DNA of 64,000 nucleotides from an uncultured delta proteobacterium (lineage in GTDB: Bacteria > Desulfobacterota > Binatia > UBA9968), in the NCBI GenBank assembly GCA_963811315.1, contig CAWERH010000039.1:4501-68500 (forward strand), written 5' to 3'. This document shows, one piece after another, positions 1 through 60,963 of the stretch. Made by a program: the position numbers and the translations under genes. The first letter of the stretch is position 1; each line of letters begins with the position of its first letter. The notes below the pieces were generated by a model. It was not told the DNA's origin. It saw only the letters and a list, made by a program, of their open reading frames with translations, and ran no database searches.

Positions 1-363
1 TGTTCGCTGATTTTCGCCGCCGACGGTCGCGCGGCGCGATTGGCGACGTTGCAACCGGACCAGCATAGAATCGGCTCGACTTTTTCTTCGTCGCACCAAC
101 GCTGCAGCGCTTCGCGCACTTTCTGCACCGACTCGGCGCGCTGCTTGCCGGCGATGGATTTGTAGAGAATGCCGCGCATGCCGTTCTTCGACGCGAGCTT
201 GGCCACTGAAAGCGCGTCCTGGTGCGCCGCGTCGGCGTGACAATGGATGTCGATGGCGCCTTGGACGCCGCTGATTGCCGGCGGGTATTGAACGCCGCCT
301 TGATAGGCGCGGCGGATTTCGTAGGATTTGATGTATCGCGATTGTGTTGTTGCGTTTTCGCTC
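1..363 (-). CDS. amidohydrolase-related TIM-barrel metal-dependent hydrolase, N-terminal part only (gene runs off the window start)
   Basis: Minus-strand ORF from ATG 361-363: MSENATTQSRYIKSYEIRRAYQGG..AIDIHCHADAAHQD... The HxH metal motif and overall sequence are paralogous to the gene at 39600-40611 and to 60132-60963. Confidence 0.55.
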
Positions 364-480
364 ATTTCGTTCTCGCTTTCTCATGCGTCGAGGGTGTTTT
401 GAAGATTGCCGCCATAATGTTCCCTTCCAAGTGTATCCAATTTGCTATTGGAATGCTCGCTCGGAGAGCGCAGCGTACGA

Positions 481-1525
481 TCACTGCTCCATCAAGATCT
501 TAACCCGCTCGACTACTTCGGGCGGCTGCACCATGACTTGTTTGGCCAATGCTTCCAGTTCTTCGCCGCTGGTCGGGGTAATATCGAAATTCTTTCTCTT
601 GGCTTCGGCCAAAAGCTCGGGGTCCTTCATGACTTTCAAAAACGCCTCGCGAAGAATTCTCACTCGATCGGGGGCCACTCCCGGCGGCGCGACGATCGGA
701 CGGCCGAAATCGTTGGCGGCCAAGACCAGCGGGACCAAACGGCGCTCGGCCTCCGGAGTTTTGTGCTCATTCATGAGCTCTTGAAGCGTGGGTACGGTGG
801 ACAAGGCGGGGATCTCGCGTCGCGCCGGTCTGCATCAGAATGCGCGCGAAGTTGGTTTTGCGCCATGTGTGGTACGGTTCGCGCGAATGATACGCTTGAA
901 CGGTGAAGGCGCGGCAGTGCAGCTCGCCGCGCTCCACGGCGAGATCGATCTCACCGCCGCCCTGGTAACCGGTGACGACAGTAAACTTGGTGCCGAGAGT
1001 TTCTTCCAACATCCGCGGCATGTAGCTGCCCGAAGTGCCCGCTCCGGTGGAGCCGCATTTAGGCGGTTCTTTGGCCTTACGAACGTCGGCTAGAGTTTTA
1101 TAGGGCGTGTCGGCGCGCATGTAGAGCAAGTAGTCGGACTTATCGGAGCTGCCGATCCACGCGAACTTCGCCCAATCGTATTTCACTTCCTTCTGTTTCA
1201 ACAGTTGATTGAAGTAAATCGACGGCTGAATCGCGCCGATGGTCAGCCCATCGGGCTTGGAAACGTTGTAGATGTAATTCGTACCGATGATCGATCCCGC
1301 GCCGGTCATATTCTGGACGATGAAACTCGGATGTCCCGGAATATGCTTGCCCATGAACTGCGCCATCAGTCGGGCGTATAGATCGTAGGCGCTGCCCGCG
1401 CTTGCCGCGGCGATGAGCGTGATCGTCTTTCCCTGGTAGTAGGGAGTTTGCGACCAAGCCTCGGCATGGCAAAAAATCAAAATCGTCAGCAGCAGAAATT
1501 TCTTCATGGAGCCCTCATAATCCAA
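481..1525 (-). CDS. tripartite tricarboxylate transporter substrate-binding protein (Bug/TctC family); apparent 1-nt frameshift near 795-810
   Basis: ORFs 767-1525 and 481-804 together give a TctC-like protein with signal peptide MKKFLLLTILIFCHAEA, GTNYIYN, TGAGTSGSY and a C-terminus DVPTLQELMNEH...KILMEQ. The frame breaks between RDPRL and STVPTLQEL. Confidence 0.7.
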
Positions 1526-1532
1526 TCAATCA

Positions 1533-2646
1533 CTATAAACCGTAAAAGCGCGCGGGATTTTCGGTAAAGATTTTTTCGACCAACGATCGCGAGAGGTCTT
1601 CGCGCGATCTCATGGTGTCGACCAGCGCTTTTTCTTCCGCCGGATCGTTGTGGCCGTAGTCGGAGCCGATCAGCAAATGATCTTCGCCGACGAATTCGGC
1701 AAGGTATTTGATGTCTTCGTCGGCTTCGCAGGCGACATAGATCCGGTAATCACGGAACAAGTCCCGGCACGAGGCGTGTTTCCAGCGCGCGTTGGGAAAG
1801 GACGGGCGCGGGCGAGCCGAACGTTTCAGGTGGTGGTAAAGATAGGGTACCCAACTTGCCGAGGCTTCGAGAAAGCCGAATTTCAAACTCGGAAACTTTT
1901 CGGGAATCGCGCCGGCGATCAGGTCGCGAAAACCGATGACCGGCGGCAGTTGCGACGCCGCGAAGGTTCCATTGAGTTCAAGATCGAAGAAATCGAGCAG
2001 GTGACGCGAGCTTTGCCCGGTGTGCACGCAGATCGGTAGGCCGAGCTTTTCCGCTTCAGCGTAGATCGGTAAGAAGTGGGGATTGTTCAGGGTCAGCGTT
2101 GCCGACGATACCGCTGAAGAAGATTCCAACGGCGCCATTCTGTTTGGCTGCATGCATTTGCTTGATGGATTCGTCCACGGAATTGAGCGGCAGCACCGCG
2201 ACCCAACGGAGCCGGCCCTTCGCCCGCGCGCAGGCGTCACCCAGATAACGGTTGTAAGCGCCGCACAGCGCGACCTGCAAATCGACATCGTCGGTGACAT
2301 CAATCAAAAACAGCGTCGGGTAAATAATCTGAGTTTGGACTCCGGCCTTGTCCATGTCGGCAAGCCGGGCGTCAACGTCTGTGAGCTCGCGGCAAGCGCG
2401 CTGGATATCGGTTCGATTGGATTCGCGTTGGGAAGCGGCAGGGGTGATGATCCGAAAGCCGCCTTTGCCTGCGGCTTTGGGAAAAATCCTGCCGTCGATC
2501 AGCCACATGACGTTGAAGTCGCGATACAGCGTGTCGCCGGGAGCCGAAAGCATGACGGGGCGGCGAGCGTACATGCTCTCGTCGATGAGTTGCCACATAC
2601 TCTCCGATTCGGCGATATGAGTGTCGGCATCGATGATTCCAGTCAT
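1533..2646 (-). CDS. amidohydrolase-2 family (ACMSD/LigW-like) metal-dependent hydrolase/decarboxylase; frameshift near 2100
   Basis: N-terminus MTGIIDADTHIAESE... (ORF 2056-2889) and C-terminus ...PICVHTG...IGSDYGHND...FYGL (ORF 1533-2303). Paralog of 17018-18114. SD AAGGA lies 8 nt upstream of the ATG at 2644-2646. Confidence 0.75.
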
Positions 2647-3965: not shown

Positions 3966-5006
3966 TCACGTCATATTGTAAAATCGTTTGGCATTCTCGC
4001 TGAAAACTTTTCGCTTGACCCGTTCCGATAGATCGCCCCTTTCCCAGAATTCGGGGATGTCCTTGGCGAACGCGCCGGCTTCGCGCTCGTGGGGGAAGTC
4101 GGTGGGATACATCAGGTAATCCTCGCCCATCTCGCGCACGACGACATCGAGGGTCTTTTCATCGGTTTCACAGGTAATGTAGATGTTGCCGTTCTTGAAG
4201 TAGTCGCTGGGCTTCTTGCTCAGCGGAAAATGTCTGCGTTTGCGATCGATGTGGAATTTCTCATCCATTCTATCCATCATGTACGGAATCCATCCAGCGC
4301 CGGCTTCGAGGAATCCGATTCTCAGCTTCGGATAAAGGTCGAAGACACCGTCGAGGACGACGCTGGTAAGCTGGATCATCTGCGCGATCGGATGTTCGAG
4401 CGTGTGGATCATCGACATGGTCTGGAGAAAATCGAAACCCAAACCGCGGCTCACCGCCCCGTGCACGGTCAACGGTACGTTCAGATCCTGCGCTTCTTTA
4501 TAAATCGGATGGAAATCCTGATGGCCATAGCCTTTATTCAGCATGGTCACCGCGGGCAAGAGGCCCGCAACCATGCGCTGTTCTTTGACCGCGCGGCGCA
4601 GTTCGGCGGCGGCTTCCGGCGGATTGTGCACCGGCAGCAACGCCACGCCTTTCAATCGGGCGTCGACTTTGCAGTAACGATCGAAGAGCCAGTTGTTATA
4701 CATGCGCGCCACGACGCAGGCCCAATCGGGATCTTGGATCAAGCCCAGGGACAGCCCGGCGGTCGGATAGAGCACCGCGGCGGAGATCTTCGAGCCCTCG
4801 ATGAACTGGATCCAACTATCGGAGGTAACCTTGGTGACCTTGTCGATGCCGCGCACAAAGCCGCGCGGCCAGCCGTCGAGCGAGGGAAAAATTGAAAAAG
4901 TCCCGGTGCGCCGATGGCCTTTATAATCTCCATCAAAGTATTGCTCTAGCTCCGCGTCGGTTTCCAATACGTGGCCGTCCGCATCGATTACAGTGACTCC
5001 ATCCAT
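3966..5006 (-). CDS. amidohydrolase-2 family protein
   Basis: 346 aa, MDGVTVIDADGHVLE... with HxH start and a C-terminal DFPHE acid/His region. Intact ORF. Confidence 0.85.
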   Translation of the reverse strand: MDGVTVIDADGHVLETDAELEQYFDGDYKGHRRTGTFSIFPSLDGWPRGFVRGIDKVTKVTSDSWIQFIEGSKISAAVLYPTAGLSLGLIQDPDWACVVARMYNNWLFDRYCKVDARLKGVALLPVHNPPEAAAELRRAVKEQRMVAGLLPAVTMLNKGYGHQDFHPIYKEAQDLNVPLTVHGAVSRGLGFDFLQTMSMIHTLEHPIAQMIQLTSVVLDGVFDLYPKLRIGFLEAGAGWIPYMMDRMDEKFHIDRKRRHFPLSKKPSDYFKNGNIYITCETDEKTLDVVVREMGEDYLMYPTDFPHEREAGAFAKDIPEFWERGDLSERVKRKVFSENAKRFYNMT

Positions 5007-5363: not shown

Positions 5364-6452
5364 GTGGGAATTATCGACGCAGACACTCATATCGACGAAA
5401 CGGACGCGACTTGGGAATACATTCAGGAAGACGACTTGCCCTACAAGCCGTCGACGGCTTATCCATCGAATCCGGACCCAAAACTGCCGCCGGCGCGTTA
5501 TTGGGTGATCGACGGCAAGCGTCAGGTGCGCTTCATTCGCAGCGATAAAGATTCGGGCACGACCGTGGCGACCCGCGAGCTGCTGGATGTCAAAGCACGC
5601 CTGAAGCATATGGATGAGTTGGGCACGGACATACAGGTGATTTATCCGACGTTGTTTCTCATGGAAGCGACGGAAAAGCCGGAAATCAATACCGCGATGC
5701 GACGCAGCTATAATCGTTGGTTGGGCGAGCGCTGCGGCGAATCGGGCGGCAGATTGCGTTGGGTGTGCATGCCGCCGCTGCAGAATATGGACGCGACTGT
5801 CGAAGAACTGACCTGGGCTAAAGAGCATGGCGCCTGCGGTGTTTTGAAAAAAGGTGACCGGGAAGTGGGTAAATATCCGGCCGATCCATACTTTGAACGG
5901 CTGTATGCCGAAGCCGAGAAACTCGATATGCCGATCTGTCTGCACACCGGATCCGGGATTCCGGATTTTTCGCCGGCGCGAGAATTCTCCCACGGTCAGT
6001 TCATGCGCACGAAGGCGGCAGTGATCAATGGAGTGCTCGGCCTGGTGCTGCACAAGATCCCCTTAAAGTTCCCCAAGCTGCGCATTGGCTGCATCGAAGC
6101 CGGTTCGATGTGGGCGCCGTTCGTGGCTTACGATTTAAAGCGCCAGGCTTTAAAACAGCAGGGACGTGAGTCGGTAGGGGTTCTCGGTGTGCCGCTGATC
6201 GACATTCCGGCGAACGTCTTCAAAGACAACCGAATCTATGTGACGTGTCAAGTGGACGAAGATTTGCCCTACATCCTCAAAACCATCGGTGAAGATAATT
6301 TGATGGTCGGATCGGATTACACCCACCGCGACCCGTCAATGGAACTGGAGTTCCGCAAGGAATTGGAAGGACGCGCCGACAAAGGCGACATCCCGCAGGC
6401 GTCGGTGCAGAAGATTCTTTACGACAACCCGAAGGCGTTCTATGCGCTATAA
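5364..6452 (+). CDS. amidohydrolase-2 family protein
   Basis: 362 aa, GTG start after SD AAGGAG: VGIIDADTHIDETD...YPTLFL...MVGSDYTHRDP. Intact. Confidence 0.85.
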   Translation: MGIIDADTHIDETDATWEYIQEDDLPYKPSTAYPSNPDPKLPPARYWVIDGKRQVRFIRSDKDSGTTVATRELLDVKARLKHMDELGTDIQVIYPTLFLMEATEKPEINTAMRRSYNRWLGERCGESGGRLRWVCMPPLQNMDATVEELTWAKEHGACGVLKKGDREVGKYPADPYFERLYAEAEKLDMPICLHTGSGIPDFSPAREFSHGQFMRTKAAVINGVLGLVLHKIPLKFPKLRIGCIEAGSMWAPFVAYDLKRQALKQQGRESVGVLGVPLIDIPANVFKDNRIYVTCQVDEDLPYILKTIGEDNLMVGSDYTHRDPSMELEFRKELEGRADKGDIPQASVQKILYDNPKAFYAL

Positions 6453-11616: not shown

Positions 11617-12597
11617 TTGATGTCAAATCTAAAACTTACTCTTGCGTGTTGGGACTACGATCGTACCCGGCCGCTCATCGATGGTCGGGTGAAAGCTGAA
11701 GGAATCGATCTCGACATAAAAATCATGCGACCCCGCGAAATGTTTCCTCGGATGCTGGAAAAAAAAGAGTTTGAAATTTCCGAGCTATCGCTTGGTTCAT
11801 TATGTCACCCTCAAAGGCCGCGGCAGCTGTCCGTTCGTGGCGGTGCCCGTGGCGTTATCCAAGATCTTCCGCCACTCGTGTATTTACGTGCGGACGGATG
11901 CGGGCATCAGGAGCCCCCAGGATCTGCGGGGCAAGCGGGTGGGAACTACTCAGCTCGGGTCCACCGGAATTATTTTCATGAACGGCATGATGCAACACGA
12001 GTACGGCGTAGGTCTGGAAGATATCCACTGGTTTATTGGCGGATTGGATTCCCCGACCACGAGACCGGTGATTCCTCTGAATCTGCCGGATAAAATTAAG
12101 GTTGACTTTCTTCCTTCGGATCAAACTTTGGAGGGGATGTTAGAAGCCGGACAACTCGACGCTTTGTTCGCGCTGTACATTCCCTCGATCTTTCAGAAAG
12201 GGCTCGCCGCCGCATAGCGCGCCTGTTTCCGAACTATTATGAAGTCGAACAGGATTATTATCGTCGCACACAGATCTTTCCGATCATGCACACCGTCGTG
12301 GTGCGCGACGATGTTCATCGTGAGCATCCATGGGTGGCTGAAAGTATGTACAAGGCTTTCTGCGAGGCTCGGGATCTAGCCGTCGACGGACTTTACGACA
12401 CGGACGCGCTACGACTCTCGCTTCCTTGGCTCATCAACCATCTTGAGGAGACCTGGAAAGTCTTAGGGAAGGATTTCTGGGCCTACGGTTTGGAGCCCAA
12501 CCGCCCGGCTTTAGAGGCGATCGGCCAGTATGTCTACGAGCAGGGTTTCTCGCCCCGCGCAGTCAGCCCCGACGAGCTGTTCGCGCTGAATGTGTGA
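11617..12597 (+). CDS. cytoplasmic SBP-fold protein resembling 4,5-dihydroxyphthalate decarboxylase (PhtD-like); two frameshifts (near 11800 and 12205)
   Basis: Three ORFs (11617-12093, 11771-12217, 12286-12597) concatenate into MSNLKLTLACWDYDRTRPLIDGRVKAEGIDL...SYVTLKGRGSCPF...MHTVVVRDDVHREHPW... There is no signal peptide. Family assignment is from memory of the LTLACWDYDRTR N-terminal signature. Confidence 0.5.
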
Positions 12598-16007: not shown

Positions 16008-17021
16008 TCAACGGTAGCCGGCATCGTCGGCAGGCAGACCACGTTCTTGGACCTCCACGAGGTAGCGCCAGCAGTCCGGCTGGGTGCCGTCGATGTCGGT
16101 GAAGCCGTAGATGGGGGCGAGCTGTCCGCTGGAGACGACCTTACCCGTCCAGCGCGCAACCTCCGGGTCCGCTGCGAGGGCGGCGACCGCGCGGCCGACG
16201 TAGGTCGGCGACTCGGAGATGCAAAAGTGCGGCATGCGGGCGGTCGCGTCCCGCCAGTTTGCTTCGGTCACGCCGTACGCGTCGAGCATCTTCTCCGAAC
16301 GCAGCCAGCCCGGAGTTACGGCGACGGCCGCGCCGTGGTGCGGGGCCAGCTCGTGACTCTGCGCGAGAGCCATGCGCTGCACGGCGTTTTTGACCAGGTC
16401 GTAGAAGAATCCCACCTGGTGGCGGTACGCCGCGTTGTACTCTGCGGTCCCGTCGGTCATCTCGATGACCAGCCCGCCGGGGCGGCGGATGAGCAGCGGC
16501 AGGGCGTGGTGGCTGGTGATCGCATGCGTGTCGATGCCCAGGCGCAGCATTCGCAGCCCGCCGGCGAGGTCGTGCTCCCACAGCTTGGTGTTGAACTGGA
16601 GGTAGGTGTCGCCGCCCCAGATGTCGTTCACGAGCACGTCGAGGCGGCCGTGGTCTCGGTCGATGCGCTGGACGAGATCGCGCACCTGCTCGCTTTCGAG
16701 GTGATCCACCCGCAAGGCGATTCCCACGCCCCCGGCGGCGGCGATCAGCTCACCGGTCTCTTCGATCGTCTCCGGCCGGTTGATTTCCGACCGGCCTGCC
16801 CGGCTGCTGCGCCCGGTGGCGTAAACTGTCGCACCCGCGCGGGCAAGCTCTACGGCAATCGCACGTCCGGCGCCGCGCGTGGCGCCTGCGACTAACGCCA
16901 CTTTCCCGGTTAATGCTCCAGCTTTTGCTTCATTCTTCGCTGTGGCTTCCATTGGCATTTTCTTCTTGCGCGCACCCTTCCGCGCGCCACGAAACTTAGG
17001 TGCGTTTTCAACAAGCCTCAT
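16008..17021 (-). CDS. short-chain dehydrogenase/reductase (SDR) family oxidoreductase
   Basis: ..GKVALVAGATRGAGRAIAVELARAGATV.. (TGxxxGxG Rossmann motif). The ATG at 17019-17021 overlaps the TGA of the upstream amidohydrolase in an ATGA arrangement. The +strand ORF 15930-16895 is an antisense artefact of ~70% GC. Confidence 0.8.
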   Translation of the reverse strand: MRLVENAPKFRGARKGARKKKMPMEATAKNEAKAGALTGKVALVAGATRGAGRAIAVELARAGATVYATGRSSRAGRSEINRPETIEETGELIAAAGGVGIALRVDHLESEQVRDLVQRIDRDHGRLDVLVNDIWGGDTYLQFNTKLWEHDLAGGLRMLRLGIDTHAITSHHALPLLIRRPGGLVIEMTDGTAEYNAAYRHQVGFFYDLVKNAVQRMALAQSHELAPHHGAAVAVTPGWLRSEKMLDAYGVTEANWRDATARMPHFCISESPTYVGRAVAALAADPEVARWTGKVVSSGQLAPIYGFTDIDGTQPDCWRYLVEVQERGLPADDAGYR

Positions 17022-26535: not shown

Positions 26536-26540
26536 TTTGG

Positions 26541-27856: not shown

Positions 27857-27859
27857 GCC

Positions 27860-50353: not shown

Positions 50354-51294
50354 CTAACGGGGTGATGGCAACATCGAGAAGTCTACTAATTTCTCGGGGT
50401 CAAGATTCTCCGGGAGCGGCCGCTCGTCACGCAGGAGCGCTAGGTAGCCGCGCACTTTTTTCAAGTCGATGGCGCCGTTGGGCGAAAGAATGCCCATGAT
50501 CGTTTCGTAGGATCTGTCTGCTTCGCTGCGGCTGATCTTAAAGCGTACCTCAATCATCCGGACGGTCTCGGCGCGGTTGGCGCGTTGCCAAGCGATGGCG
50601 TCCATGACCGCGGCGATGGTCTTTCGAATCCGCTCTCGATTGTTGCGAATCTCGTTCTGAGAGGTGAACAAGCCGACGTAGGGAATATCCGCCAAGTCAC
50701 CGAGAAAGAGGAATTTCTTGTAGCCCAGGGATACTGCCTTCTCGTCAAACGGCGGGCTCAGGACCGCGCCAACCACTTGATTGCTCGTCAGCGTCGCGAA
50801 GCTGTTGGCCGTTCCACCGGTGGTGAGAAGACCGACCTGCTTTTCGTCCAAGCCAAGCTTCTTTAATCCGGCGCGCGCGAAATAATACGGCGAAGAACGG
50901 ATGTCTGAGATGGCAATTTTCTTGCCCACCAAATCTCGAGCGCTGGAAATCTCCGCATTGGTGACCAATACCCACGGCGTGTCTCATAGAGTGACAGAAC
51001 GACTACGAGCGGCAGGCCCGCCACCGCCGCGTTGATTGCGGCTTGGGGTGAAGTGAAGAAATGGATGTTGCCGTTCATTACCGCCTGCGGGCCGATGGCG
51101 CTGCGCATCTGGATATAGTCGACGTCCAAGCCCGCTCTCGTGAAAAAGCCCTGTTCCTTCGCGACCTCGAAAGGGAGCGTGGAGACCGCCGAAGAGGGAT
51201 AGCCGATACGAACCTTTTGTGCCGGATCAGCAGGCCAGGCGACGCGCGCACTAAGGACAGAGGCGATTGTTAAGATCAGCGTCAAGGATTTCAT
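50354..51294 (-). CDS. NMT1/SsuA-like periplasmic substrate-binding protein; frameshift near 50965-50990
   Basis: MKSLTLILTIASVLSARVAWPADPAQKVRIGYPSS..VVLSLYETR | ..VTNAEISSARDLVGKKIAISDIRSSPYYF... It lies 25 nt downstream of amidohydrolase 51319-52452 on the same strand. Confidence 0.75.
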
Positions 51295-51318
51295 GGGCCT
51301 GACGATTTTGCCGGATTA

Positions 51319-52452
51319 TTACATTCCCGTCATTCCGTAATAGGTTGCGCAGTTGTCCCAGAGAATCTTTCGCTTGTCCTCGTCGGTGATTGGCAGTTGC
51401 AAGAAGCGCTCGACCGCTCTCGGATATTTCGTATCGACATGGGGAAAGTCCGTGGAGAAGACCAAGCGCTCGTTGCCGCAGAAATCGATCGCGTATTTCA
51501 CCGGATCTTCGTCGCATTCCACCGAGGCATAGCATTGCCGTTTGAAATAGTAACTTGGCGGGTTTTTGAGCTGCGGCGCCCACTGGTCGCCGTAAAGCTC
51601 CCAATGTTCATCGAGACGCCACATGAGAAAGGGCAGCCAGCCGCAGTTGCCTTCGAGAAACGCCACCCGCAGTTTCGGATGACGGTCTAAGATTCCGCCG
51701 CCGCAGAAGCTTCCGACCGCAAGCATTTGTTCCACGGGATGGGAAAAGGTATGGCGCAGCATGAAATCGTAACCGAATTGCTCGCCGACCTGGCGCGCCG
51801 CCGAGTTGTTGGACTCATGGAAGCCGAGCGGCACTCCGAGATCTTCGAGCGCGGACCAGAGCGGCTCATAGTACGGCTCGTGCCAGTTGTGGCCGTTGAC
51901 GATGTTGGCGCGCAGAAAGATCGCGCGAAAACCCAACTGTTCGACGCAGCGGCGCGTCTCGGCGATCGCATCGTCGATGTTGAAGGGCGATACCATGCCG
52001 GCGCCGATGAGCTTGCGCGGATCCGCTTGGCAGAATTCATAGAGCCAGTCGTTGTAGGCGCGCGCCAGCGCGGCGGCGAATTCGCCGTCCAAATCCGGGA
52101 TACTGAGCACGTTCAGCCCGCGGCTCGGATAGAGAATCGCCAGATCGATTCCTTCCTCCGCCATTGCGTCGAGCTGCACTTGCGGCGACCAGCCGCGCTC
52201 ATTGTGAGTCTTAAAAAGTTTCTGGTTTTTGTGAAAAATATGTCCCGGCGGGGGAAGTGTTCCCGGAGGCGGGTCGACGGGGCGGCCCCAGGCTCTGCCG
52301 TCGGGACCGATCATGCGAAGGTCGCGCACATGGTCGGTCGTGCCGATGGGCGCGAGATGTTTAAATCTCTTGTCGATGTAGCGCGGCCAAAGATCGGCCG
52401 GCTCGAGGATGTGCATGTCGCTGTCGAGAACTTTGAAACCGTTGTTGGCCAT
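51319..52452 (-). CDS. amidohydrolase-2 family protein
   Basis: MANNGFKVLDSDMHILEPADLW...LGFHESNNS...VFSTDFPHVD.. ATG 52450-52452 after SD GGAGG. Confidence 0.85.
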   Translation of the reverse strand: MANNGFKVLDSDMHILEPADLWPRYIDKRFKHLAPIGTTDHVRDLRMIGPDGRAWGRPVDPPPGTLPPPGHIFHKNQKLFKTHNERGWSPQVQLDAMAEEGIDLAILYPSRGLNVLSIPDLDGEFAAALARAYNDWLYEFCQADPRKLIGAGMVSPFNIDDAIAETRRCVEQLGFRAIFLRANIVNGHNWHEPYYEPLWSALEDLGVPLGFHESNNSAARQVGEQFGYDFMLRHTFSHPVEQMLAVGSFCGGGILDRHPKLRVAFLEGNCGWLPFLMWRLDEHWELYGDQWAPQLKNPPSYYFKRQCYASVECDEDPVKYAIDFCGNERLVFSTDFPHVDTKYPRAVERFLQLPITDEDKRKILWDNCATYYGMTGM

Positions 52453-52607: not shown

Positions 52608-53564
52608 TCATGTTGACTGCGGATTCGTCGAAATATATTTCGCCGCTTTTTGCGGGTCGATGCCGTCAGCGCGCAGTTGCACTTGCGCCGCCTCTTCCTG
52701 AAGTTGAAAGGTCACCGTGTAGGCCGACTCGTCGCCCCAGCCACGGTTGACTCCCGCTATCAGAGCTTGCTCCGCCAAATTGGCAAGCGGCAAGGGCACG
52801 TCAAGCTCACGTCCCAATGCCGTCGCCAAACCGACGTCTTTACGGAGCAACTTGAGTGGAAATGTATCGGTTTCGTAATCGTTGCGAAAAACCGTCTGCG
52901 GCACTTGCACATGGAGTACGTGCATCCGGCCGACCATGCCCCGGCGCACGCACTCCCAGAGTGATTCGGTATCGACACCCGCTTTGACGCCAAGGGTGAG
53001 TCCTTCGGCGATGGCTTGAGAGATCGTGCTGTTGATCATTTGGTGGACGAGCTTGCAGATGCTGCCGCTGCCCAATGGACCTGCGTATAAGACTTGATCG
53101 CCGAACGCGCGCAGCACCGGAGTAACCCGCTCAAAGATTTCTCGAGCCCCGCCGACCATGACCTCATGAATACCGCGCGCCGCGCCCGGCTGACCGGAGG
53201 CGACGGGCGCGTCGAGCACGAAAGCGCCTTTGGCGCGAAAAAGCGGTTCGAGGCGGCGAACCAACGACGGTGGACTGGTGGAGATATCGATGAAGACCGA
53301 TCCCGGCTTTATACCTTCGAGAATTCCCTGGACGCCGGCTGCGATCTGCTCGACGTCCTTGGGCATCGGTAGCGCGGTGATGATGATATCGCTTTGCCGC
53401 GCCAGGTCCCTGGCGGAGTCAACGACTTTGGCGCCGTGTTCGCCAAACGAGCGAGTTGCTTCGTCGCGCAGATCGAACACAACCATTGGAAAGCCCGCCC
53501 GCTGGATATGGCCCGCGACGGGTCCGCCCATGTTGCCGAGACCGATGAAACCGATTGTCTCCAT
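52608..53564 (-). CDS. NAD(P)-dependent oxidoreductase, 3-hydroxyisobutyrate dehydrogenase/6-phosphogluconate dehydrogenase-like family
   Basis: METIGFIGLGNMGGPVAGHI (Rossmann fold) ...GPLGSGSICKLVHQMI.. 318 aa, intact. Confidence 0.85.
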   Translation of the reverse strand: METIGFIGLGNMGGPVAGHIQRAGFPMVVFDLRDEATRSFGEHGAKVVDSARDLARQSDIIITALPMPKDVEQIAAGVQGILEGIKPGSVFIDISTSPPSLVRRLEPLFRAKGAFVLDAPVASGQPGAARGIHEVMVGGAREIFERVTPVLRAFGDQVLYAGPLGSGSICKLVHQMINSTISQAIAEGLTLGVKAGVDTESLWECVRRGMVGRMHVLHVQVPQTVFRNDYETDTFPLKLLRKDVGLATALGRELDVPLPLANLAEQALIAGVNRGWGDESAYTVTFQLQEEAAQVQLRADGIDPQKAAKYISTNPQST

Positions 53565-55718: not shown

Positions 55719-55818
55719 GAAAGGATGAAGGATAAAGGCGGAAGGATGAAGTACGCAGATCGTCGATTTGGGTCTTCCCTCAATTTATCCTTTATCCTTT
55801 TGCCTTTATCCTTTCTTC
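55719..55818. repeat. AAGGATRA-type 8-mer tandem units and their inverted complement forming a long imperfect hairpin
   Basis: ggaaaggatgaaggataaaggcggaaggatgaag ... cctcaatttatcctttatccttttgcctttatcctttc. Confidence 0.45.
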
Positions 55819-56647
55819 AAATACTGACCTTGCCGCCGTTGAGCTTGATGCCGAGCTTCGCCAATGCTTCGACCACTGGGATCTCCGCGCCGAGCGCTTT
55901 GCCGACATCGGCGGCGAGCGGCAGATCTTTGTCGTAGAGATTCGTGCCGGGATTGAACGTCAATTCGCCGCCGGAGATGTCGTAGCGGGTTTCCCAGCGA
56001 TCGAGGATGTGCTGCGACTTGGTTTTTTTCATCAGATCGAGCGCGGCCTTGTAGCTGACGCCGCCGGCCTTGGCGATCTGCAGCGCTTCATAGACGATCA
56101 ACGCTTCGGAGGCGGTGACCATGTTTTTGAATAGTTTGGTCACGTTGCCGCAGCCAAGCGGACCCATGTGCACGGCGTCTTTCGCCATCTTCAGCAGATG
56201 CGGCTTGGCGCGCTCGAAAAAAGCTTTTTGCCCGCCGACGAGAAAGGTCAAACCGCCCTGGCGCACCATGCTGGGAACCGCCGTCATGCAGGCGTCGATG
56301 ACGTTGACGCGTTTGTCGGCCGCCAGCTCGGCAACTTTTTTTGTCGTTGCCGGACGGATCGTGCTGTGGAGCAAGACCAGCGCGCCGGGCGACGCGCCCT
56401 CCAAAATGCCGTCGGCTCCGAGCACGCAGTCCAAGACTTCCTGATCGGTGCGCACGACGACGTCGATGAGCGTGCAGGATTGCGCCACGGCCTTCGCCGA
56501 CGGCGCGGTTTCAGCGCCTTCCGCGCGCGCCGCTTCCAAAGCGGCGGGGGCGATATCGAAGGCGGTAGCGACGACGTTGGCGAGTTTCAATCGCGATAAC
56601 AGGGCGCTGCCCATCGCGCCGGTGCCGACAAAGCCGATTTTGTCCAT
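55817..56647 (-). CDS. NAD(P)-dependent oxidoreductase, 3-hydroxyisobutyrate dehydrogenase-like family
   Basis: MDKIGFVGTGAMGSALLSRL.. 276 aa, intact. Confidence 0.85.
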   Translation of the reverse strand: MDKIGFVGTGAMGSALLSRLKLANVVATAFDIAPAALEAARAEGAETAPSAKAVAQSCTLIDVVVRTDQEVLDCVLGADGILEGASPGALVLLHSTIRPATTKKVAELAADKRVNVIDACMTAVPSMVRQGGLTFLVGGQKAFFERAKPHLLKMAKDAVHMGPLGCGNVTKLFKNMVTASEALIVYEALQIAKAGGVSYKAALDLMKKTKSQHILDRWETRYDISGGELTFNPGTNLYDKDLPLAADVGKALGAEIPVVEALAKLGIKLNGGKVSI

Positions 56648-56660
56648 GATTCGATTCCTC

Positions 56661-57677
56661 CTAAGCTTTTGCTTCGAGCTGCGGCATGACCTGTTTGGTA
56701 AATAATTCCAACGAGCGTGAGGTTTCGTCCGGCGACAGATCGCCGAAAGCGAATTGACCGACGAGATAGTTGCAGCCCGCTTGAGCCATTTGATCCTGTA
56801 AAAAAGCGGTAACGGTCGCCGGACTGCCGGCGATACCCTGGCCCACTTTTATGAGCGCGTCCAACTCCGCCGGTCGCTGATGCACCGGGCCTTTGCCGCC
56901 GCGATGGTAGAAAAGATGGTTGAAGCTCTTATGCCATACCGGATAGGCCCTGCGGCCAATCTTGACCGCTGCATCGTCGGTTTCCGCGACGAAGATGAAG
57001 CGGCCCAGACCGATCAGCGGCGCGATGGGATTTTTCGCCTGCGTCTCGCGCCATACTTCGCGAAAGCGATCGGTGAATTCACGGGTCTTGTCGGCGGGAT
57101 CGAGGCTCACGACATTCAGTCCTTGGCGCGCCGCTCGTTCCGCGCTCACCGTCGAGTGCACGCCGTACCAGACCGGCGGATGGGGTTTTTGCAAGCACTC
57201 CAATTCCATTGGCACGTCATCGAACGAGAAACAGTCGCCGTGAAAGTCGAGCGTCTTGTGGGTCAAGCCGCGCATGATGAGTTCGAGTCCCTCGACGTAC
57301 ATTGCCTCGGCCTTGGCGGGATCATTGCCGTAGATCGCTGCTTCGATCTGCGATGCGCCGCGGCCGAAGCCGATGTCGAGGCGGCCGCCGCTCATCTGAT
57401 CGAGCATGCAAATCTCTTCGATCAGGCGGATCGGATGATAGAGCGGCAGGGCATAAACCAGCGGCCCGAAACGCAGCCGCTTGGTGCGCTGCGCCACCGC
57501 GGAGAGAAAAACGCTGGGCGAAGGCGCCATGCCGAGCGGCGTCGAGTGATGCTCGGCGACGTGATAGGCGTAAAAACCCTCGCGATCGTAAGTCTCGATG
57601 AGTTGAAGGCGCGCCTCGTAATATTCGCGCAGCGGCAAATTGTTGCGGTCCAGGTGGTCGAAAATCCCAAACTTCAT
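56661..57677 (-). CDS. LLM-class flavin-dependent oxidoreductase (luciferase-like monooxygenase)
   Basis: MKFGIFDHL...YHVAEHH..LVYALPLYHPIRLIEEICMLDQMSGGRLDIGFGRG.. 338 aa, intact. Confidence 0.85.
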   Translation of the reverse strand: MKFGIFDHLDRNNLPLREYYEARLQLIETYDREGFYAYHVAEHHSTPLGMAPSPSVFLSAVAQRTKRLRFGPLVYALPLYHPIRLIEEICMLDQMSGGRLDIGFGRGASQIEAAIYGNDPAKAEAMYVEGLELIMRGLTHKTLDFHGDCFSFDDVPMELECLQKPHPPVWYGVHSTVSAERAARQGLNVVSLDPADKTREFTDRFREVWRETQAKNPIAPLIGLGRFIFVAETDDAAVKIGRRAYPVWHKSFNHLFYHRGGKGPVHQRPAELDALIKVGQGIAGSPATVTAFLQDQMAQAGCNYLVGQFAFGDLSPDETSRSLELFTKQVMPQLEAKA

Positions 57678-57818: not shown

Positions 57819-58880
57819 TCAGCCAAGTCCGTAAAACTTGCGCGGATTTGACTCGAGAATCTTCTCGATGACCGCCGGGGCGATGCGGCGATCGTTGCGC
57901 AGCAGACGGATCGCGTTGAGCTCGGATGAGGGATCGTGGTGACCGTAGTCGGTGCCGATCATGAGAGCATTTTCACCGGCATGGCTCAGGACGTAAGGGA
58001 GATCGTCGGTATTCTCGCACGCCACCCACATGTTGTTGGCGGCGAGCGGATCGGCGGGAAACGGCCTGCCCTGACGGCGGAAGCGATCGGCCAGATCGTT
58101 CAGAACATAGGGCACCCATTGGGCGCTGACCTCGACGAAGCCCCAACGGACCTTCGGGAATTTTTTCGGCAACTCTTTCTCGATCAGCGTGTGACAGGCG
58201 CCGACGACCGTGAGTTTGAACTTGGTAAATGTCGTGTCCTCGGCGAAAAAATCGTGGTGGAGGAAACTGCCGTTGGCGGAATGGACGCAGACGGGCAGAT
58301 CAAGATCGCCGCACATCTCCCAGAGCGGATAAAAGTAGGGAGATCCGAGCGCCTGCTCGCACTCCAACCCGCGCATGAAAAGCCCGCAGGCGCCGTGGTT
58401 CTTGGCCCACTCCAACTCATCGCGCACCGCTGCCGGAGTTTTTTCCAGAAGCCGCAGCGGCGGCTTCACCACCCAGCGCAACCGGCCCCGTCCTTGGCGC
58501 CAGAGATCGCCCATCCAGCGATTGTACGATCTGCAGAGAGCGCGTTCGCGCGCGGCGTCCTGCACGATCGGGCGGAGAAACAGCGTCGGATAGAGCACCT
58601 GAGTCTCGATGCCAAGCTCGTCCATGTGCGCGAGCCGGGATTCGACGCTGAGCATTTCGCGCGATTCTTTCGAGGTGTCGGTGCCGACGTTGCGGTCTTT
58701 GCCGTGCGCGCGTCCTTCGATCACCCAAAAGTCGCGCACAGCAGTGCCCTCGTTGCTGCGCAGCTCCGCGCCGAAGCTCTGGGTCATCAGTTGCGGCGCA
58801 AAGCGGCGCTCATCGTCGTCAAGATAACTCCAAGTCTGCACCGTCTCGATCACGTGCGCGTCAGCGTCAATCGCTCCCAT
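57819..58880 (-). CDS. amidohydrolase-2 family protein
   Basis: MGAIDADAHVIETVQTW...YPTLFL..PVCVHSANG..IGTDYGHHDPS..FYGLG. 353 aa, intact. Confidence 0.85.
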   Translation of the reverse strand: MGAIDADAHVIETVQTWSYLDDDERRFAPQLMTQSFGAELRSNEGTAVRDFWVIEGRAHGKDRNVGTDTSKESREMLSVESRLAHMDELGIETQVLYPTLFLRPIVQDAARERALCRSYNRWMGDLWRQGRGRLRWVVKPPLRLLEKTPAAVRDELEWAKNHGACGLFMRGLECEQALGSPYFYPLWEMCGDLDLPVCVHSANGSFLHHDFFAEDTTFTKFKLTVVGACHTLIEKELPKKFPKVRWGFVEVSAQWVPYVLNDLADRFRRQGRPFPADPLAANNMWVACENTDDLPYVLSHAGENALMIGTDYGHHDPSSELNAIRLLRNDRRIAPAVIEKILESNPRKFYGLG

Positions 58881-58893
58881 CGGTTTCTCCTTA

Positions 58894-59883
58894 CTAAAGG
58901 CCCTTGGCGGCCTCTCGCACCACCGATGTGTCGATAAGTGCCGCCGGCGCGACGTTCTTTGCCTCGGGAGTACTCCTCGCTAGATCTTCAAGGATCGTCT
59001 TTATTCCATCCTCGTACGGGGTTGGAATATCGGGAAGGATTTTTATTTGGTGCTCCAGCGCCGTCTTTACCGCTTCGTGATCGGTTGTGCGCACATATTT
59101 GGCGAGTACTCTTTCGGCAAACGGCCGGTCGTTTTTGATCCGTTTGATCGCCAGCATGGAGGCTCTCATAAATCTGACCACCACTGAGCGATTCTTTTCC
59201 AAAAAGCTCCGCGTCGTGCCATGTCCCGTGAGCAAGTAGGGAACTTTGAGTTCTTCCAAATCGAGCAGGATGTGCATGCCGGCTTTCTTCACTACCGGTG
59301 TGATGATCGGCGAGAAAACCGACAGAGAAATATCTCCTCGTTGCATGGCAAGCAGTCTGTCGCCTTCTAGCCCAATTTGAATCATCGTCACGTCGGTCTT
59401 CTTTAATCCTAGATGCTTTAAGGCATACTCGGCAACGAAGTCGGAGGTCGAGCCGAAGCGGCTGACGGCCAATTTTTTTCCTTTTATATCTTCGGGCTTT
59501 TGGATCTCAGGCTTCGCTCCCAGGGTGTAGGCCATCACGTTCTGCAGTCGGCTGATGACGACCACGTCTTTATTTCCTTGCAGGTACGCATAAGCGGCGG
59601 ATGTGCCGCCGATCAAGCCGATGGGACTCTGGCCGGTAACCAGCAGCTGCACCGCGAGCGAGCCGCCACGAATCAAAAGCATGCGCACGTCCAAGCCTTG
59701 CTCGTCGAAATAGCCGGCATCCTTCGCGACCCAGAGGCTCAGCATATTCGCGTTGGTGGCGGAGTAGGTCACGGGCAGTACGGTCTTTTCCTGCGCCAAA
59801 GATTTCGAGTCGCCGCAAAAGAGAAAAATAACGGCGAGCACAAGCATCGAAGCGTTTTTCATGAGACGACTCTCCCGCGCCAT
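58894..59883 (-). CDS. NMT1/SsuA-like periplasmic substrate-binding protein
   Basis: 329 aa with signal peptide. It lies 14 nt upstream (transcriptionally) of amidohydrolase 57819-58880 on the same strand. Confidence 0.85.
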   Translation of the reverse strand: MARESRLMKNASMLVLAVIFLFCGDSKSLAQEKTVLPVTYSATNANMLSLWVAKDAGYFDEQGLDVRMLLIRGGSLAVQLLVTGQSPIGLIGGTSAAYAYLQGNKDVVVISRLQNVMAYTLGAKPEIQKPEDIKGKKLAVSRFGSTSDFVAEYALKHLGLKKTDVTMIQIGLEGDRLLAMQRGDISLSVFSPIITPVVKKAGMHILLDLEELKVPYLLTGHGTTRSFLEKNRSVVVRFMRASMLAIKRIKNDRPFAERVLAKYVRTTDHEAVKTALEHQIKILPDIPTPYEDGIKTILEDLARSTPEAKNVAPAALIDTSVVREAAKGL

Positions 59884-60131
59884 GACTGCGATTCTTGGTT
59901 GCTCCCCTTTGAAGAAGAAAACTGAGCGGATTTGATCTTTCGTGGACCCTACATCTTGTAATCTGACGGAACCTAATCCAGTTCAAGTTCGTCTGTCAAT
60001 GCGCGGAGTGCGCAAATGCCAAATGTTACGTGACGGCAGTGCGTCAGCGCTTGACAGAGTTCGCCGCGGACGTGTTATAGGTCGCCTTGAAAATGATCAA
60101 CCTTGCTAAGCGAGTGAAGGAGAGCTATCTT

Positions 60132-60963
60132 ATGATTACCGACAAAGCCGGACGCGATCACTTCGTTATCGACCAACACGTACACGTCGGCATGCGACCC
60201 GCACGCTCGACGACTGCGTCGAGTTCGTACTTACCCGATGAGTTGCTCGCCAACATGGACGCAAGCGGCGTCGATATGGTGGTGGGATTTCCGAAAGCCA
60301 ATTCGCATACGGACTACCGGGTGGAAAACGAGCGGATCATCGCCGCGATGAAGCAGCACCCGACGCGGATCGTTGCCTTTGCCCGGATCAACCCGTACTT
60401 CGGCGCCAAGGCGGTCGCCGATGTTCACGACTACGCGGCGAAAGGCGCGCTCGGCTTAAAGATTCATCCGCTGCGGGATTTCTCCGGCAACCGTGTCAAC
60501 GATCCCGAGTTGATGTTCCCCATCGTCGAAGCGGCGCAAGCGGAAAAGCTTTTGCTTCTCGTGCACAGCGGCAATTCTTGGAACTGCGCGCCGACCTTGA
60601 TCGCCGATCTCGCAAGCAATTTTCCCAAAGGCTAATTTCGTGATCGCCCACTCGGCGGGCTTCGAGGGCCATCAAGAGGCGATCGTGGCAGCGCGCCATC
60701 AAGATAATTTGTATTTCGACACCGCGTCGAACGGGTATCCCGACATCACCACCAACGTCGTGCGTGCCCTCGGCCCTGAGCGGGTCGTTTACGGTTCGGA
60801 CCATCCAACCTTGCCGTTTGGATTCGAGATCGGCAAAATCGTCAAGTATGCGGGCCTCAATTCCGATCAGTTGGATTTGATCCTCGGTAAAAACCTCACG
60901 CGCCTGTTGCGCATCGAGCCGAAACCGTCCGCGCCGAAAACCATGGACATCACGCAAATCTGA
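60132..60963 (+). CDS. amidohydrolase-related TIM-barrel metal-dependent hydrolase; frameshift near 60625
   Basis: ATG 60132 after SD AAGGAGAG: MITDKAGRDHFVIDQHVHVG..LKIHPLRDF..LLLLVHSGNSW..SNFPK | ANFVIAHSAGFEGHQEAI..LYFDTASNGYPD..VVYGSDHPTLP.. Confidence 0.7.

What the first reader, a model, noticed from the sequence alone, without database searches (positions are those of the whole stretch)
1..60963. Amplified amidohydrolase-2 / TIM-barrel hydrolase toolkit with a PhtD-like decarboxylase homolog
There are nine members. Six are classical amidohydrolase-2 (1533, 3966, 5364, 17018, 51319, 57819). Three are a related subfamily with an (A/V)IDxHCH start (1-363, 39600, 60132). The amidohydrolase-2 superfamily includes non-oxidative aromatic decarboxylases (LigW, gamma-resorcylate decarboxylase, ACMSD, IDCase) and hydratases (LigJ). 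The cytoplasmic SBP-fold protein at 11617-12597 resembles 4,5-dihydroxyphthalate decarboxylase. Together with alpha/beta hydrolases, an LLM oxidoreductase and a Xi-GST this looks like a substituted aromatic or heterocyclic carboxylate catabolic island. I cannot infer the substrate identity.
Basis: inference. Interest (0 to 1): 0.55.

Follow-up and report, generated by a model that had tools for sequence, protein, structure and literature searches.

The report
Amidohydrolase-fold oxygenase-like genes in Binatia
A chromosome segment from an uncultured soil bacterium (Binatia) really does carry nine amidohydrolase-fold genes, but six of them have the metal-binding residues of recently described two-metal oxygenases rather than of aromatic-acid decarboxylases, so this is a lineage-typical uptake-and-oxidation region and not an aromatic-acid island.

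Summary
All nine amidohydrolase-superfamily genes exist at the stated places. Their grouping needs correcting: seven hit PF04909 and two hit DUF6282. Four of the nine are broken by single frameshifts in this assembly.

The six "classical" copies do not look like decarboxylases. All six have the N-terminal D-x-H, the His and Glu ligands, and a C-terminal D-x-(P/G/T)-H-x-D/E loop. That is the ligand set of amidohydrolase-related dinuclear oxygenases (AROs: PtmU3, SfbO, AibH2, DitZ). Their best matches among solved structures are AROs. One copy (51319-52452) fits the published ARO motif exactly. Four belong to a PtmU3-like clade in which Gly, Ser or Thr replaces the motif's Pro.

The PhtD-like call at 11617-12597 holds. 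It has no signal peptide and is 45% identical to a protein inside a Burkholderia phthalate cluster. It has two frameshifts and no phthalate partner genes.

There are no aromatic ring-oxidation genes, mobility genes or tRNAs, and the composition is flat. Gene order in the first ~14 kb is shared with other Binatia genomes. I therefore read this as ordinary Binatia chromosome, not an island. These are new members, and partly a variant, of a known kind.

The parts
51319..52452 (-). AH5: PF04909 protein (377 aa) that fits the published ARO motif exactly (LDSDMH ... H212 ... E267 ... DFPHVD)
   Evidence: Pfam E 2e-34. Best solved relative is PtmU3, 1e-41, aligned over residues 10-353 with the ligand residues matching. 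Motif positions.
3966..5006 (-). AH2: PF04909 protein (346 aa), IDADGH ... DFPHERE. ARO-like, with the final acidic residue shifted by one position
   Evidence: Pfam. Best solved relatives are the AROs 8SM9 (9e-28), 8SM7, 8SM8 and PtmU3. An identical protein occurs on a short-read contig.
5364..6452 (+). AH3: PF04909 protein (362 aa), IIDADTH ... H194 ... E245 ... DYTHRD. PtmU3-like clade lacking the motif's Pro
   Evidence: ligands conserved in 69-77 of 78 family representatives. Family profile hits PtmU3 at 3e-41. AF2 model pLDDT 94.
1533..2646 (-). AH1: same clade as AH3 (IIDADTH ... DYGHND). One frameshift near 2096
   Evidence: The reconstruction aligns over 1-370 in a single frame in ten related genomes.
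17018..18114 (-). AH4: 58% identical to AH1 (IIDADTH ... DYGHND). One frameshift near 17907. Overlaps the start of the downstream SDR gene
57819..58880 (-). AH6: same clade (IDADAH ... DYGHHD). Lies in an SBP-AH6-LLM-dehydrogenase operon
   Evidence: LLM lies downstream in 26 of 57 orthologous loci and the dehydrogenase in 16 of 40.
60132..60963 (+). AH7: small PF04909 protein with H-x-H (IDQHVHV). Not ARO-like. One frameshift near 60630
   Evidence: Best solved relative is 3CJP, an uncharacterised amidohydrolase, 6e-8.
39600..40611 (-). AH8: DUF6282 protein (IDIHCH). Amidohydrolase-superfamily TIM barrel. One frameshift near 39802
   Evidence: Pfam E 1e-25. The reconstruction matches intact 336-aa orthologues at up to 93% identity. 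AF2 model of an orthologue has pLDDT 84, and Foldseek matches dipeptidases, AtzC and phosphotriesterase-like lactonases.
1..365 (-). AH9: N-terminal 121 aa of a second DUF6282 gene that runs off the window
   Evidence: 41% identical to AH8.
11620..12597 (+). S06: cytoplasmic SBP-fold protein of the PhtD/OphC (4,5-dihydroxyphthalate decarboxylase) family. Two frameshifts
   Evidence: No signal peptide. Reconstruction. 40-47% identical over 99% of its length to plasmid proteins. One of those sits in a phthalate cluster.
52608..53564 (-). 3-hydroxyisobutyrate-dehydrogenase-like gene directly upstream of AH5 on the same strand
   Evidence: Pfam NAD_binding_2 plus NAD_binding_11.
50354..51315 (-). 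NMT1-type solute-binding protein directly downstream of AH5 (frameshifted)
55817..57677 (-). LLM oxidoreductase (56661-57677) and a second 3-hydroxyisobutyrate-dehydrogenase-like gene (55817-56647), both downstream of AH6
16008..17021 (-). Short-chain dehydrogenase. Its start overlaps the stop of AH4
24409..29171 (+). CoA-ester block: enoyl-CoA hydratase, acyl-CoA dehydrogenase (frameshifted) and two family III CoA-transferases

Best explanation
The window is ordinary chromosome from an uncultured soil Binatia bacterium. It is packed with periplasmic solute-binding proteins and oxidative catabolic enzymes. Six of the nine amidohydrolase-fold genes (AH1-AH6) most likely encode amidohydrolase-related dinuclear oxygenases (AROs).

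**Proposed mechanism.** The TIM barrel holds two metal ions. Metal site 1 is bound by the strand-1 Asp and His of D-x-H and by a His after strand 5. A Glu after strand 6 and the strand-8 Asp bridge the two metals. Metal site 2 is bound by the His and the acidic residue of the D-x-(P/G/T)-H-x-D/E loop. The reduced cluster reacts with O2 and hydroxylates an unactivated aliphatic C-H of a carboxylate, sulfonate or CoA-ester substrate.

**Metal type.** The second-sphere positions named in the ARO literature are Thr/Ala/Gly at the x of D-x-H, Tyr at the end of strand 2, and a non-aromatic residue between His and Asp. These match the diiron, high-potential type, which usually has no Rieske ferredoxin next to it. 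AH5 has Met at the first position and is mixed.

**Downstream steps.** Adjacent NAD(P) dehydrogenases would oxidise the new alcohol: two 3-hydroxyisobutyrate-dehydrogenase-like genes and one SDR. The CoA-transferase, hydratase, dehydrogenase and thiolase-like genes would finish degradation.

**The other three.** AH7 and the two DUF6282 genes are ordinary H-x-H metal hydrolases of unknown substrate. S06 is a PhtD/OphC-family decarboxylase homologue with no phthalate pathway around it.

**Shown versus inferred.** Shown: family membership, the ligand set and its conservation, the nearest solved relatives, the gene order and the lineage. Inferred: metal content, oxygenase activity, the order of reactions and the substrates.
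For: - **Family and motifs.** PF04909 hits. D-x-H, His, Glu and D-x-(P/G/T)-H-x-D/E are present in all six.
- **Published definition.** The literature gives D-x-H plus D-x-P-H-x-D/E as the ARO hallmark and states that characterised PF04909 decarboxylases and hydrolases lack it (PMC13154177; PMC10811679).
- **Nearest solved relatives, single sequences.** AH5 hits PtmU3 at 1e-41, then 8SM9, 8SM8 and LigW (4ICM) before 8SM7, AibH, DitZ and SfbO. AH2 hits 8SM9, 8SM7, 8SM8 and PtmU3 first. AH3 hits PtmU3 first.
- **Nearest solved relatives, family profile.** The top six hits of the AH3-family profile are all AROs: PtmU3 3e-41, 4DZI 2e-30, SfbO 5e-28, 8SM9, DitZ and 8SM8. The PtmU3, 4DZI and DitZ matches include the N-terminal D-x-H. 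ACMSD follows at 5e-25 and aligns only from position 25 or 62.
- **Ligand conservation.** In 78 full-length 50%-identity representatives of the AH3 family, the ligand columns are conserved in 69-77 of 78. The Pro column reads G 47, S 12, T 7, P 7.
- **Metal-type rules.** Second-sphere rules are. No Rieske, ferredoxin or reductase gene is in the window.
- **Context.** Dehydrogenases are adjacent to AH4, AH5 and AH6. The AH6-LLM-dehydrogenase order recurs in relatives.
- **Lineage and synteny.**
Against: - Only AH5 meets the published C-terminal motif literally. AH1/3/4/6 have Gly or Thr where the motif has Pro. AH2 has DFPHERE.
- Fold comparison does not separate oxygenases from decarboxylases. 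ACMSD has the best Foldseek E-value (6.5e-16) against 1e-15 to 4e-14 for 4DZI, PtmU3 and DitZ. Only the query-normalised TM-scores slightly favour the AROs: 0.76-0.79 against 0.62-0.72.
- By my count, roughly twenty AROs have been studied experimentally, so the link from motif to function is young.
- No electron-transfer partner is encoded nearby.
- The adjacency of solute-binding proteins to AH6 is not conserved: 0 of 54 loci.
- No NCBIfam model names any of the nine.
- Four genes are frameshifted here.
Confidence: 0.6

Rival explanations
1. The PF04909 copies are non-oxidative decarboxylases or hydratases (of the LigW, ACMSD, gamma-resorcylate decarboxylase, IDCase or LigJ type). Together with the PhtD-like protein they degrade a substituted aromatic or heterocyclic carboxylate.
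For: They share the Pfam family. Decarboxylases appear among the solved relatives with good scores: ACMSD at 5e-25 against the family profile and at the best Foldseek E-value. A PhtD/OphC homologue is present, as is a Xi-class GST.
Against: All six have D-x-H, not H-x-H or E-x-H, on strand 1. They also carry the extra His and acidic ligands of a second metal site, which the literature says characterised decarboxylases lack. The decarboxylase alignments skip the N-terminal ligand strand. The window holds no ring-hydroxylating or ring-cleaving dioxygenase and no dihydrodiol dehydrogenase. The PhtD homologue is isolated and frameshifted.
Confidence: 0.12
2. AH1-AH6 use the same two-metal site for non-redox chemistry, such as lactone, ester or amide hydrolysis or hydration. 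This is what classical binuclear amidohydrolases do.
For: Binuclear sites are common in hydrolases of the amidohydrolase superfamily (established knowledge). No reductase or ferredoxin is nearby. Two alpha/beta hydrolases and a polysaccharide-deacetylase-type gene share the window. The four G/T-variant copies fall outside the published ARO motif.
Against: Every solved or assayed protein with this ligand set described in the cited papers is redox-active or an oxygenase. There is no carbamylated-Lys-type bridging residue; the bridge is Glu plus Asp, as in AROs.
Confidence: 0.15
3. The frameshifted copies (AH1, AH4, AH7, AH8, S06) are true pseudogenes, so the 'toolkit' is decaying in this strain.
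For: About 12 frameshifts in 64 kb. None lies in a long homopolymer run that would mark a classic long-read error.
Against: A class A penicillin-binding protein is also split. Orthologues of AH1 and AH8 are intact and collinear with my reconstructions. Related long-read MAGs break different genes; for example, AH2 is split in L027 but intact here. The closest genomes are nanopore-era MAGs.
Confidence: 0.1

Closest known systems
PtmU3 (PDB 6OMP/6OMQ), a diiron TIM-barrel monooxygenase of platensimycin/platencin biosynthesis and founding ARO
   Same: It is the best solved relative of AH5 (1e-41), of AH3, and of the AH3-family profile (3e-41). The alignments run full length and the D-x-H, His, Glu and D-x-P-H-x-E ligands line up. 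It has a non-aromatic residue after the His and Phe/Tyr at the end of strand 2. It has the highest TM-score to the AH3 model, 0.78.
   Different: Identity is only about 23%. PtmU3 sits in a natural-product cluster, whereas these genes sit among transport and catabolic genes. Four copies replace the motif's Pro with Gly or Thr. No activity is known for any of them.
SfbO, AibH1H2, DitZ, 4DZI and 8SM7-9 (other characterised or structurally solved AROs)
   Same: Same fold and ligand set. All rank above or among the top hits for AH2, AH5 and the AH3-family profile. Like AibH and DitZ, the genes here lie in a catabolic context.
   Different: SfbO and AibH-type low-potential AROs have a hydrophobic x in D-x-H, an aromatic residue after the His, and a neighbouring Rieske ferredoxin. 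None of these applies here, except Met in AH5.
PF04909 non-oxidative decarboxylases and hydratases (ACMSD, LigW, gamma-resorcylate decarboxylase, IDCase, LigJ)
   Same: Same Pfam family and TIM-barrel fold, with comparable Foldseek scores.
   Different: They have a mononuclear site built on H-x-H or E-x-H, with no second-site His or acidic loop (plus established knowledge of the ACMSD and LigW structures). Their alignments to the window's family omit strand 1.
4,5-dihydroxyphthalate decarboxylase (PhtD/OphC/Pht5)
   Same: S06 is 45% identical over 99% of its length to the gene so annotated in Burkholderia sp. YI23. That gene lies between a phthalate-dioxygenase-type reductase, a Rieske oxygenase and an oxidoreductase. 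S06 also lacks a signal peptide.
   Different: No phthalate dioxygenase or dihydrodiol dehydrogenase lies nearby. The ORF has two frameshifts. The neighbours are periplasmic NMT1-type binding proteins and an alpha/beta hydrolase.
DUF6282 (PF19799)
   Same: AH8 and AH9 match this family, and orthologues are so named by NCBI.
   Different: The family has no known function. Here it is shown to model as an amidohydrolase-superfamily barrel with invariant H-x-H, His207, His232 and Asp290. Its structural matches are dipeptidase, AtzC and phosphotriesterase-like hydrolases, not PF04909 decarboxylases. Its profile similarity to the ARO-like family is confined to the last 60 residues.

Membership tests
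Amidohydrolase-related dinuclear oxygenases (ARO) | PF04909 TIM-barrel fold | tested here: met
   Pfam hits above the cut-off for AH1-AH6. The AF2 model of AH3 has pLDDT 94 and matches PF04909 structures.
Amidohydrolase-related dinuclear oxygenases (ARO) | N-terminal D-x-H on strand 1 (metal site 1) | tested here: met
   DADTH, DADGH, DADTH, DADTH, DSDMH and DADAH in AH1-AH6. Asp is conserved in 76 of 78 family representatives and His in 77 of 78. AH7, AH8 and AH9 have H-x-H instead and are excluded.
Amidohydrolase-related dinuclear oxygenases (ARO) | C-terminal D-x-P-H-x-D/E loop (metal site 2), as published | tested here: inconclusive
   Met literally only by AH5 (DFPHVD). AH1 and AH4 have DYGHND, AH3 DYTHRD and AH6 DYGHHD: all three ligand residues are kept but the non-ligand Pro is replaced. 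AH2 has DFPHERE. Across the family the Pro column reads G 47, S 12, T 7, P 7. I therefore file AH5 as a member and the other five as ARO-like variants.
Amidohydrolase-related dinuclear oxygenases (ARO) | Remaining ligands: a His after strand 5 and a bridging Glu after strand 6 | tested here: met
   His194 is conserved in 75 of 78 and Glu245 in 73 of 78, and both are present in all six window copies. They align to PtmU3's IHIG and AEAG.
Amidohydrolase-related dinuclear oxygenases (ARO) | Two redox-active metals (Fe2 or Mn/Fe) and O2-dependent substrate oxidation | not testable with these tools
   Needs purified protein: metal analysis, UV/vis or EPR spectra, and activity assays.
Amidohydrolase-related dinuclear oxygenases (ARO) | Neighbouring Rieske ferredoxin (typical of the low-potential subgroup only) | tested here: not met
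   No PF00355 or other ferredoxin hit in any ORF of the window. The literature says such partners are largely absent next to high-potential AROs, so this does not exclude membership.
PF04909 non-oxidative decarboxylases and hydratases (ACMSD, LigW, gamma-RSD, IDCase, LigJ) | Mononuclear site with H-x-H or E-x-H (or Glu) on strand 1, and no second-site loop | tested here: not met
   AH1-AH6 have D-x-H plus the second-site His and acid. This contrast is described.
PF04909 non-oxidative decarboxylases and hydratases (ACMSD, LigW, gamma-RSD, IDCase, LigJ) | Closest sequence relatives are decarboxylases | tested here: not met
   AROs rank first in every search. Fold-level ranking is inconclusive.
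4,5-dihydroxyphthalate decarboxylase (PhtD/OphC) | Full-length homology to a family member in a phthalate cluster, and a cytoplasmic SBP fold | tested here: met
   45% identity, 99% coverage, E 2e-88 to Burkholderia sp. YI23 BYI23_D008200, which lies in an oph-type cluster. No signal peptide.
4,5-dihydroxyphthalate decarboxylase (PhtD/OphC) | Phthalate dioxygenase and dihydrodiol dehydrogenase genes in the neighbourhood | tested here: not met
   None in 64 kb.
DUF6282 / amidohydrolase superfamily | Pfam PF19799 match and a TIM barrel with H-x-H, His, His and Asp metal ligands | tested here: met
   (E 1e-25). Invariant H43, H45, H207, H232 and D290. Model pLDDT 84. Foldseek matches amidohydrolase-superfamily hydrolases at probability 1.0 and TM about 0.5.
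Genomic (catabolic) island | Compositional shift, a tRNA or integrase boundary, mobility genes, and patchy presence among relatives | tested here: not met
   GC is 0.54-0.59 throughout. No tRNA. No transposase or integrase Pfam hit. The order TctC-AH1-(SBP-AH2)-AH3-UGSC-U1-SBPs-S06-hydrolase is shared, in overlapping parts, with several Binatia MAGs.

The most novel reading that the evidence does not exclude
The PtmU3-like clade with D-x-(G/S/T)-H-x-D may be a large branch of dinuclear oxygenases that the published motif census (which requires Pro) does not capture. About 1,190 clusters at 50% identity match AH3 at E<=1e-10, though motifs were checked only in 78 of the best hits. The clade is found in Binatia and in Dehalococcoidia/SAR202. 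Uncultured soil and ocean bacteria might use it to hydroxylate recalcitrant aliphatic acids. In Binatia its conserved downstream neighbours are a UGSC selenoprotein and an uncharacterised ~355-aa protein. These might be the missing electron-delivery system for high-potential AROs.
Probability: 0.1. Interest if true: 0.65.

Novelty: new member of a known kind. Interest (0 to 1): 0.35.

Why it matters
AROs were recognised as a superfamily only between 2019 and 2026, and most are still annotated as "amidohydrolase". This window shows how that label misleads: a plausible decarboxylase story dissolves once the ligand residues are read.

It also points to a sizeable PtmU3-like clade that keeps every metal ligand but lacks the motif's proline. 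A strict motif search would miss it. The clade occurs in Binatia and in Dehalococcoidia/SAR202, groups thought to oxidise recalcitrant organic matter. If its members are oxygenases, they add aliphatic C-H hydroxylation capacity to these uncultured lineages.

For the window itself the practical result is modest. It is typical Binatia chromosome, the substrate is still unknown, and several genes need re-sequencing before anyone clones them.

Tried and rejected
- **NCBIfam** names none of the nine proteins. It confirmed only SsuA-type binding proteins, CoA-transferases, LLM and UGSC.
- **Rfam and tRNA scans** of the whole window found nothing.
- **The search for related loci with the family alignment** failed because no stretch was conserved enough. 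I used the single protein instead.
- **Homopolymer test for sequencing error.** Only 5 of the 12 frameshift intervals contain a run of 5 or more identical bases, so this is undecided.
- **Near-identical short-read contigs** (L079 at 97.1%, L001 at 95.7%) do not overlap any frameshift site.
- **A conserved 'SBP + oxygenase' module is rejected.** The binding protein upstream of AH6 is absent in 0 of 54 orthologous loci with room for it. Neighbourhoods of AH3 orthologues in L002 and L003 also differ.
- **UGSC/U as a general partner of PF04909 genes is weakened.** Three distant UGSC-U pairs have no PF04909 neighbour.
- **Exact-sequence look-up of AH5** found nothing.
- **DUF6282 as a close relative of the ARO-like family is rejected.** hhalign gives 52% probability over the last 60 residues only.

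Full report
**1. What is in the window**

I scanned every sizeable ORF against Pfam. The window is GC 0.54-0.59 throughout and holds about 60 genes. Homologues of its proteins are named "Candidatus Binatia bacterium". The closest genomes are soil MAGs filed by NCBI as "uncultured delta proteobacterium" or Binatia. The best is 92% identical at the protein level for the gene at 5364.

**2. The observation**

All nine amidohydrolase-superfamily genes are real.

| Label | Coordinates | Family | Strand-1 motif | State here |
|---|---|---|---|---|
| AH1 | 1533-2646 (-) | PF04909 | D-x-H | one frameshift |
| AH2 | 3966-5006 (-) | PF04909 | D-x-H | intact |
| AH3 | 5364-6452 (+) | PF04909 | D-x-H | intact |
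| AH4 | 17018-18114 (-) | PF04909 | D-x-H | one frameshift |
| AH5 | 51319-52452 (-) | PF04909 | D-x-H | intact |
| AH6 | 57819-58880 (-) | PF04909 | D-x-H | intact |
| AH7 | 60132-60963 (+) | PF04909 | H-x-H | one frameshift |
| AH8 | 39600-40611 (-) | DUF6282 | H-x-H | one frameshift |
| AH9 | 1-365 (-) | DUF6282 (fragment) | H-x-H | runs off the window |

- The copies are 22-58% identical to each other, so they are old paralogues.
- AH1, AH4, AH7 and AH8 each carry one frameshift.
- My reconstructions are collinear, in one frame, with intact orthologues. AH1 aligns over 1-370 in ten genomes. AH8 has 100% coverage against 336-aa proteins.
- About eight other genes are also split, including a class A penicillin-binding protein.
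- Related long-read MAGs break different genes. I therefore favour assembly indels, but I could not prove it.

**3. What the six "classical" copies are**

The best solved relative of AH5 is PtmU3 (1e-41). Other AROs fill most of the next ranks: 8SM9, 8SM8, 8SM7, AibH, DitZ and SfbO, with LigW (4ICM) ranking fourth. The literature calls these amidohydrolase-related dinuclear oxygenases. It defines them by two features (PMC13154177; PMC10811679):
- an N-terminal D-x-H on strand 1
- a C-terminal D-x-P-H-x-D/E loop

It states that characterised PF04909 decarboxylases and hydrolases lack both.

How the window copies compare:
- All six have D-x-H.
- AH5 has DFPHVD, an exact fit.
- AH2 has DFPHERE.
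- AH1, AH3, AH4 and AH6 have DY(G/T)HxD.

I then searched 1.84 billion representative proteins with AH3 and took 78 full-length hits. In these, the ligand columns are conserved in 69-77 of 78 sequences: Asp7, His9, His194, Glu245, Asp318, His321 and Asp323. The non-ligand Pro column reads G 47, S 12, T 7, P 7.

A profile of this family hits PtmU3 at 3e-41, with strand 1 included. It then hits 4DZI, SfbO, 8SM9, DitZ and 8SM8, all of them AROs. ACMSD follows at 5e-25 and aligns only from position 25 or 62. AH2's first four hits are also AROs.

Fold comparison is not decisive. The AH3 model (pLDDT 94) matches ACMSD and the AROs with similar E-values. PtmU3 and DitZ have the best TM-scores, 0.78-0.79.

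The second-sphere positions mostly match the diiron, high-potential type, which usually lacks a neighbouring Rieske ferredoxin:
- x of D-x-H is T, G, T, T, M, A in AH1 to AH6
- Tyr at the end of strand 2
- a non-aromatic residue after the His

None of the window's ORFs is a ferredoxin.

**4. The other three**

- **AH7** is a small H-x-H protein. Its nearest solved relative is the uncharacterised 3CJP.
- **DUF6282** has no solved relative by sequence. It shows only C-terminal profile similarity to the ARO-like family.
- An AF2 model of a DUF6282 orthologue (pLDDT 84) is a TIM barrel. It matches dipeptidases, AtzC and phosphotriesterase-like lactonases. H-x-H, two further His and the strand-8 Asp are invariant.
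- I conclude it is a probable metal hydrolase of unknown substrate.

**5. The PhtD-like protein**

The gene at 11620-12597 has no signal peptide, unlike most of its NMT1-type neighbours. After repair of two frameshifts it is 40-47% identical over its full length to a plasmid-borne family. The Burkholderia sp. YI23 member of that family lies in a phthalate-type cluster with a reductase, a Rieske oxygenase and an oxidoreductase. Family membership is therefore supported. The window, however, has no phthalate partner genes.

**6. Context**

- About 16 NMT1/SsuA-type binding-protein genes.
- About four binding-protein genes of other SBP families, plus one TctC-type receptor.
- Only one ABC permease and ATPase pair, at 46790-48415.

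Also present:
- three family III CoA-transferases
- an enoyl-CoA hydratase
- an acyl-CoA dehydrogenase
- a thiolase-like and OB-fold pair
- an SDR
- two 3-hydroxyisobutyrate-dehydrogenase-like genes
- an LLM oxidoreductase
- a PNPOx-like protein
- a Xi-type GST with the CPWA motif

Dehydrogenases sit next to AH4, AH5 and AH6. In orthologous metagenome loci, AH6 is followed by the LLM in 26 of 57 cases and by the dehydrogenase in 16 of 40. The upstream binding protein is conserved in 0 of 54.

Gene order from TctC to the hydrolase at 13.5 kb is shared, in overlapping parts, with several Binatia MAGs. There are no tRNAs, RNA families or mobility genes. I conclude this is core chromosome of a lineage rich in these families, not an island.

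**7. Verdict**

- The decarboxylase and aromatic-island reading is not supported.
- The best reading is a set of ARO-type oxygenases (one strict member, five variants) plus three ordinary H-x-H hydrolases and an orphan PhtD homologue.
- The substrates remain unknown.

Noticed in passing
window 6523-7074 (+) and 18780-19343 (+): Two UGSC-family selenoprotein genes (PF24696, E 6.5e-43 and 1e-40). Each has an in-frame TGA, at 6805-6807 and 19065-19067, inside the motif GLG(D/A)-U-GSCTSW. The same hairpin, GTCGTGGA-GTG-TCCACGAC, follows about 15 nt after each TGA and looks like a bacterial SECIS element. The corresponding codon is TGA in 25 related loci.
   Followed up: partly
window 7239-8357 (+) and 19885-20967 (+): Each UGSC gene is followed by a ~360-aa protein with no Pfam, NCBIfam or PDB match. 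More than 7,500 homologues exist, all annotated 'hypothetical'. The UGSC-plus-unknown pair is conserved in Binatia and in three Chloroflexota-type contigs, once directly after a thioredoxin-reductase-like gene. In Binatia the pair usually lies just downstream of the AH3 orthologue, but distant pairs have no PF04909 neighbour.
   Followed up: partly
window 2968-59883 (16 genes, e.g. 8412-11520, 22057-24079, 29122-34120): About 16 NMT1/SsuA-type solute-binding-protein genes, most with signal peptides, are served by only one ABC permease and ATPase pair (46790-48415).
   Followed up: partly
window 2096, 11800, 12200, 17907, 21340, 26100, 38900, 39802, 42650, 50900, 60630, 62650 (approximate): About 12 frameshifts in 64 kb, including one in a class A penicillin-binding protein (61416-63897). 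They do not sit in long homopolymers. Orthologues are intact elsewhere, and related long-read MAGs break different genes, which suggests assembly indels.
   Followed up: partly
window 24409-29171 and 36578-39415: Two CoA-ester blocks. The first has an enoyl-CoA hydratase, an acyl-CoA dehydrogenase and two family III CoA-transferases. The second has a thiolase-like protein, a ChsH2-type OB-fold protein and a third CoA-transferase. An AH3 orthologue in another contig (L003) also sits beside such a block. This is reminiscent of PtmU3, which I recall acts on CoA thioesters (not checked here).
   Followed up: no
window 43496-44479 (-): A 327-aa protein with a C-terminal Tim44-like domain (E 4e-40), in a non-alphaproteobacterial lineage.
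   Followed up: no
L042-L066 (genome-contig loci): AH3 has orthologues at about 60% identity in many Dehalococcoidia/SAR202 genomes, usually with a second PF04909 gene nearby but without the NMT1 or UGSC neighbours.
   Followed up: no
window 767-1525 (-): The TctC-type receptor gene looks truncated. Related genomes align down to about 483, so it probably carries another frameshift.
   Followed up: no
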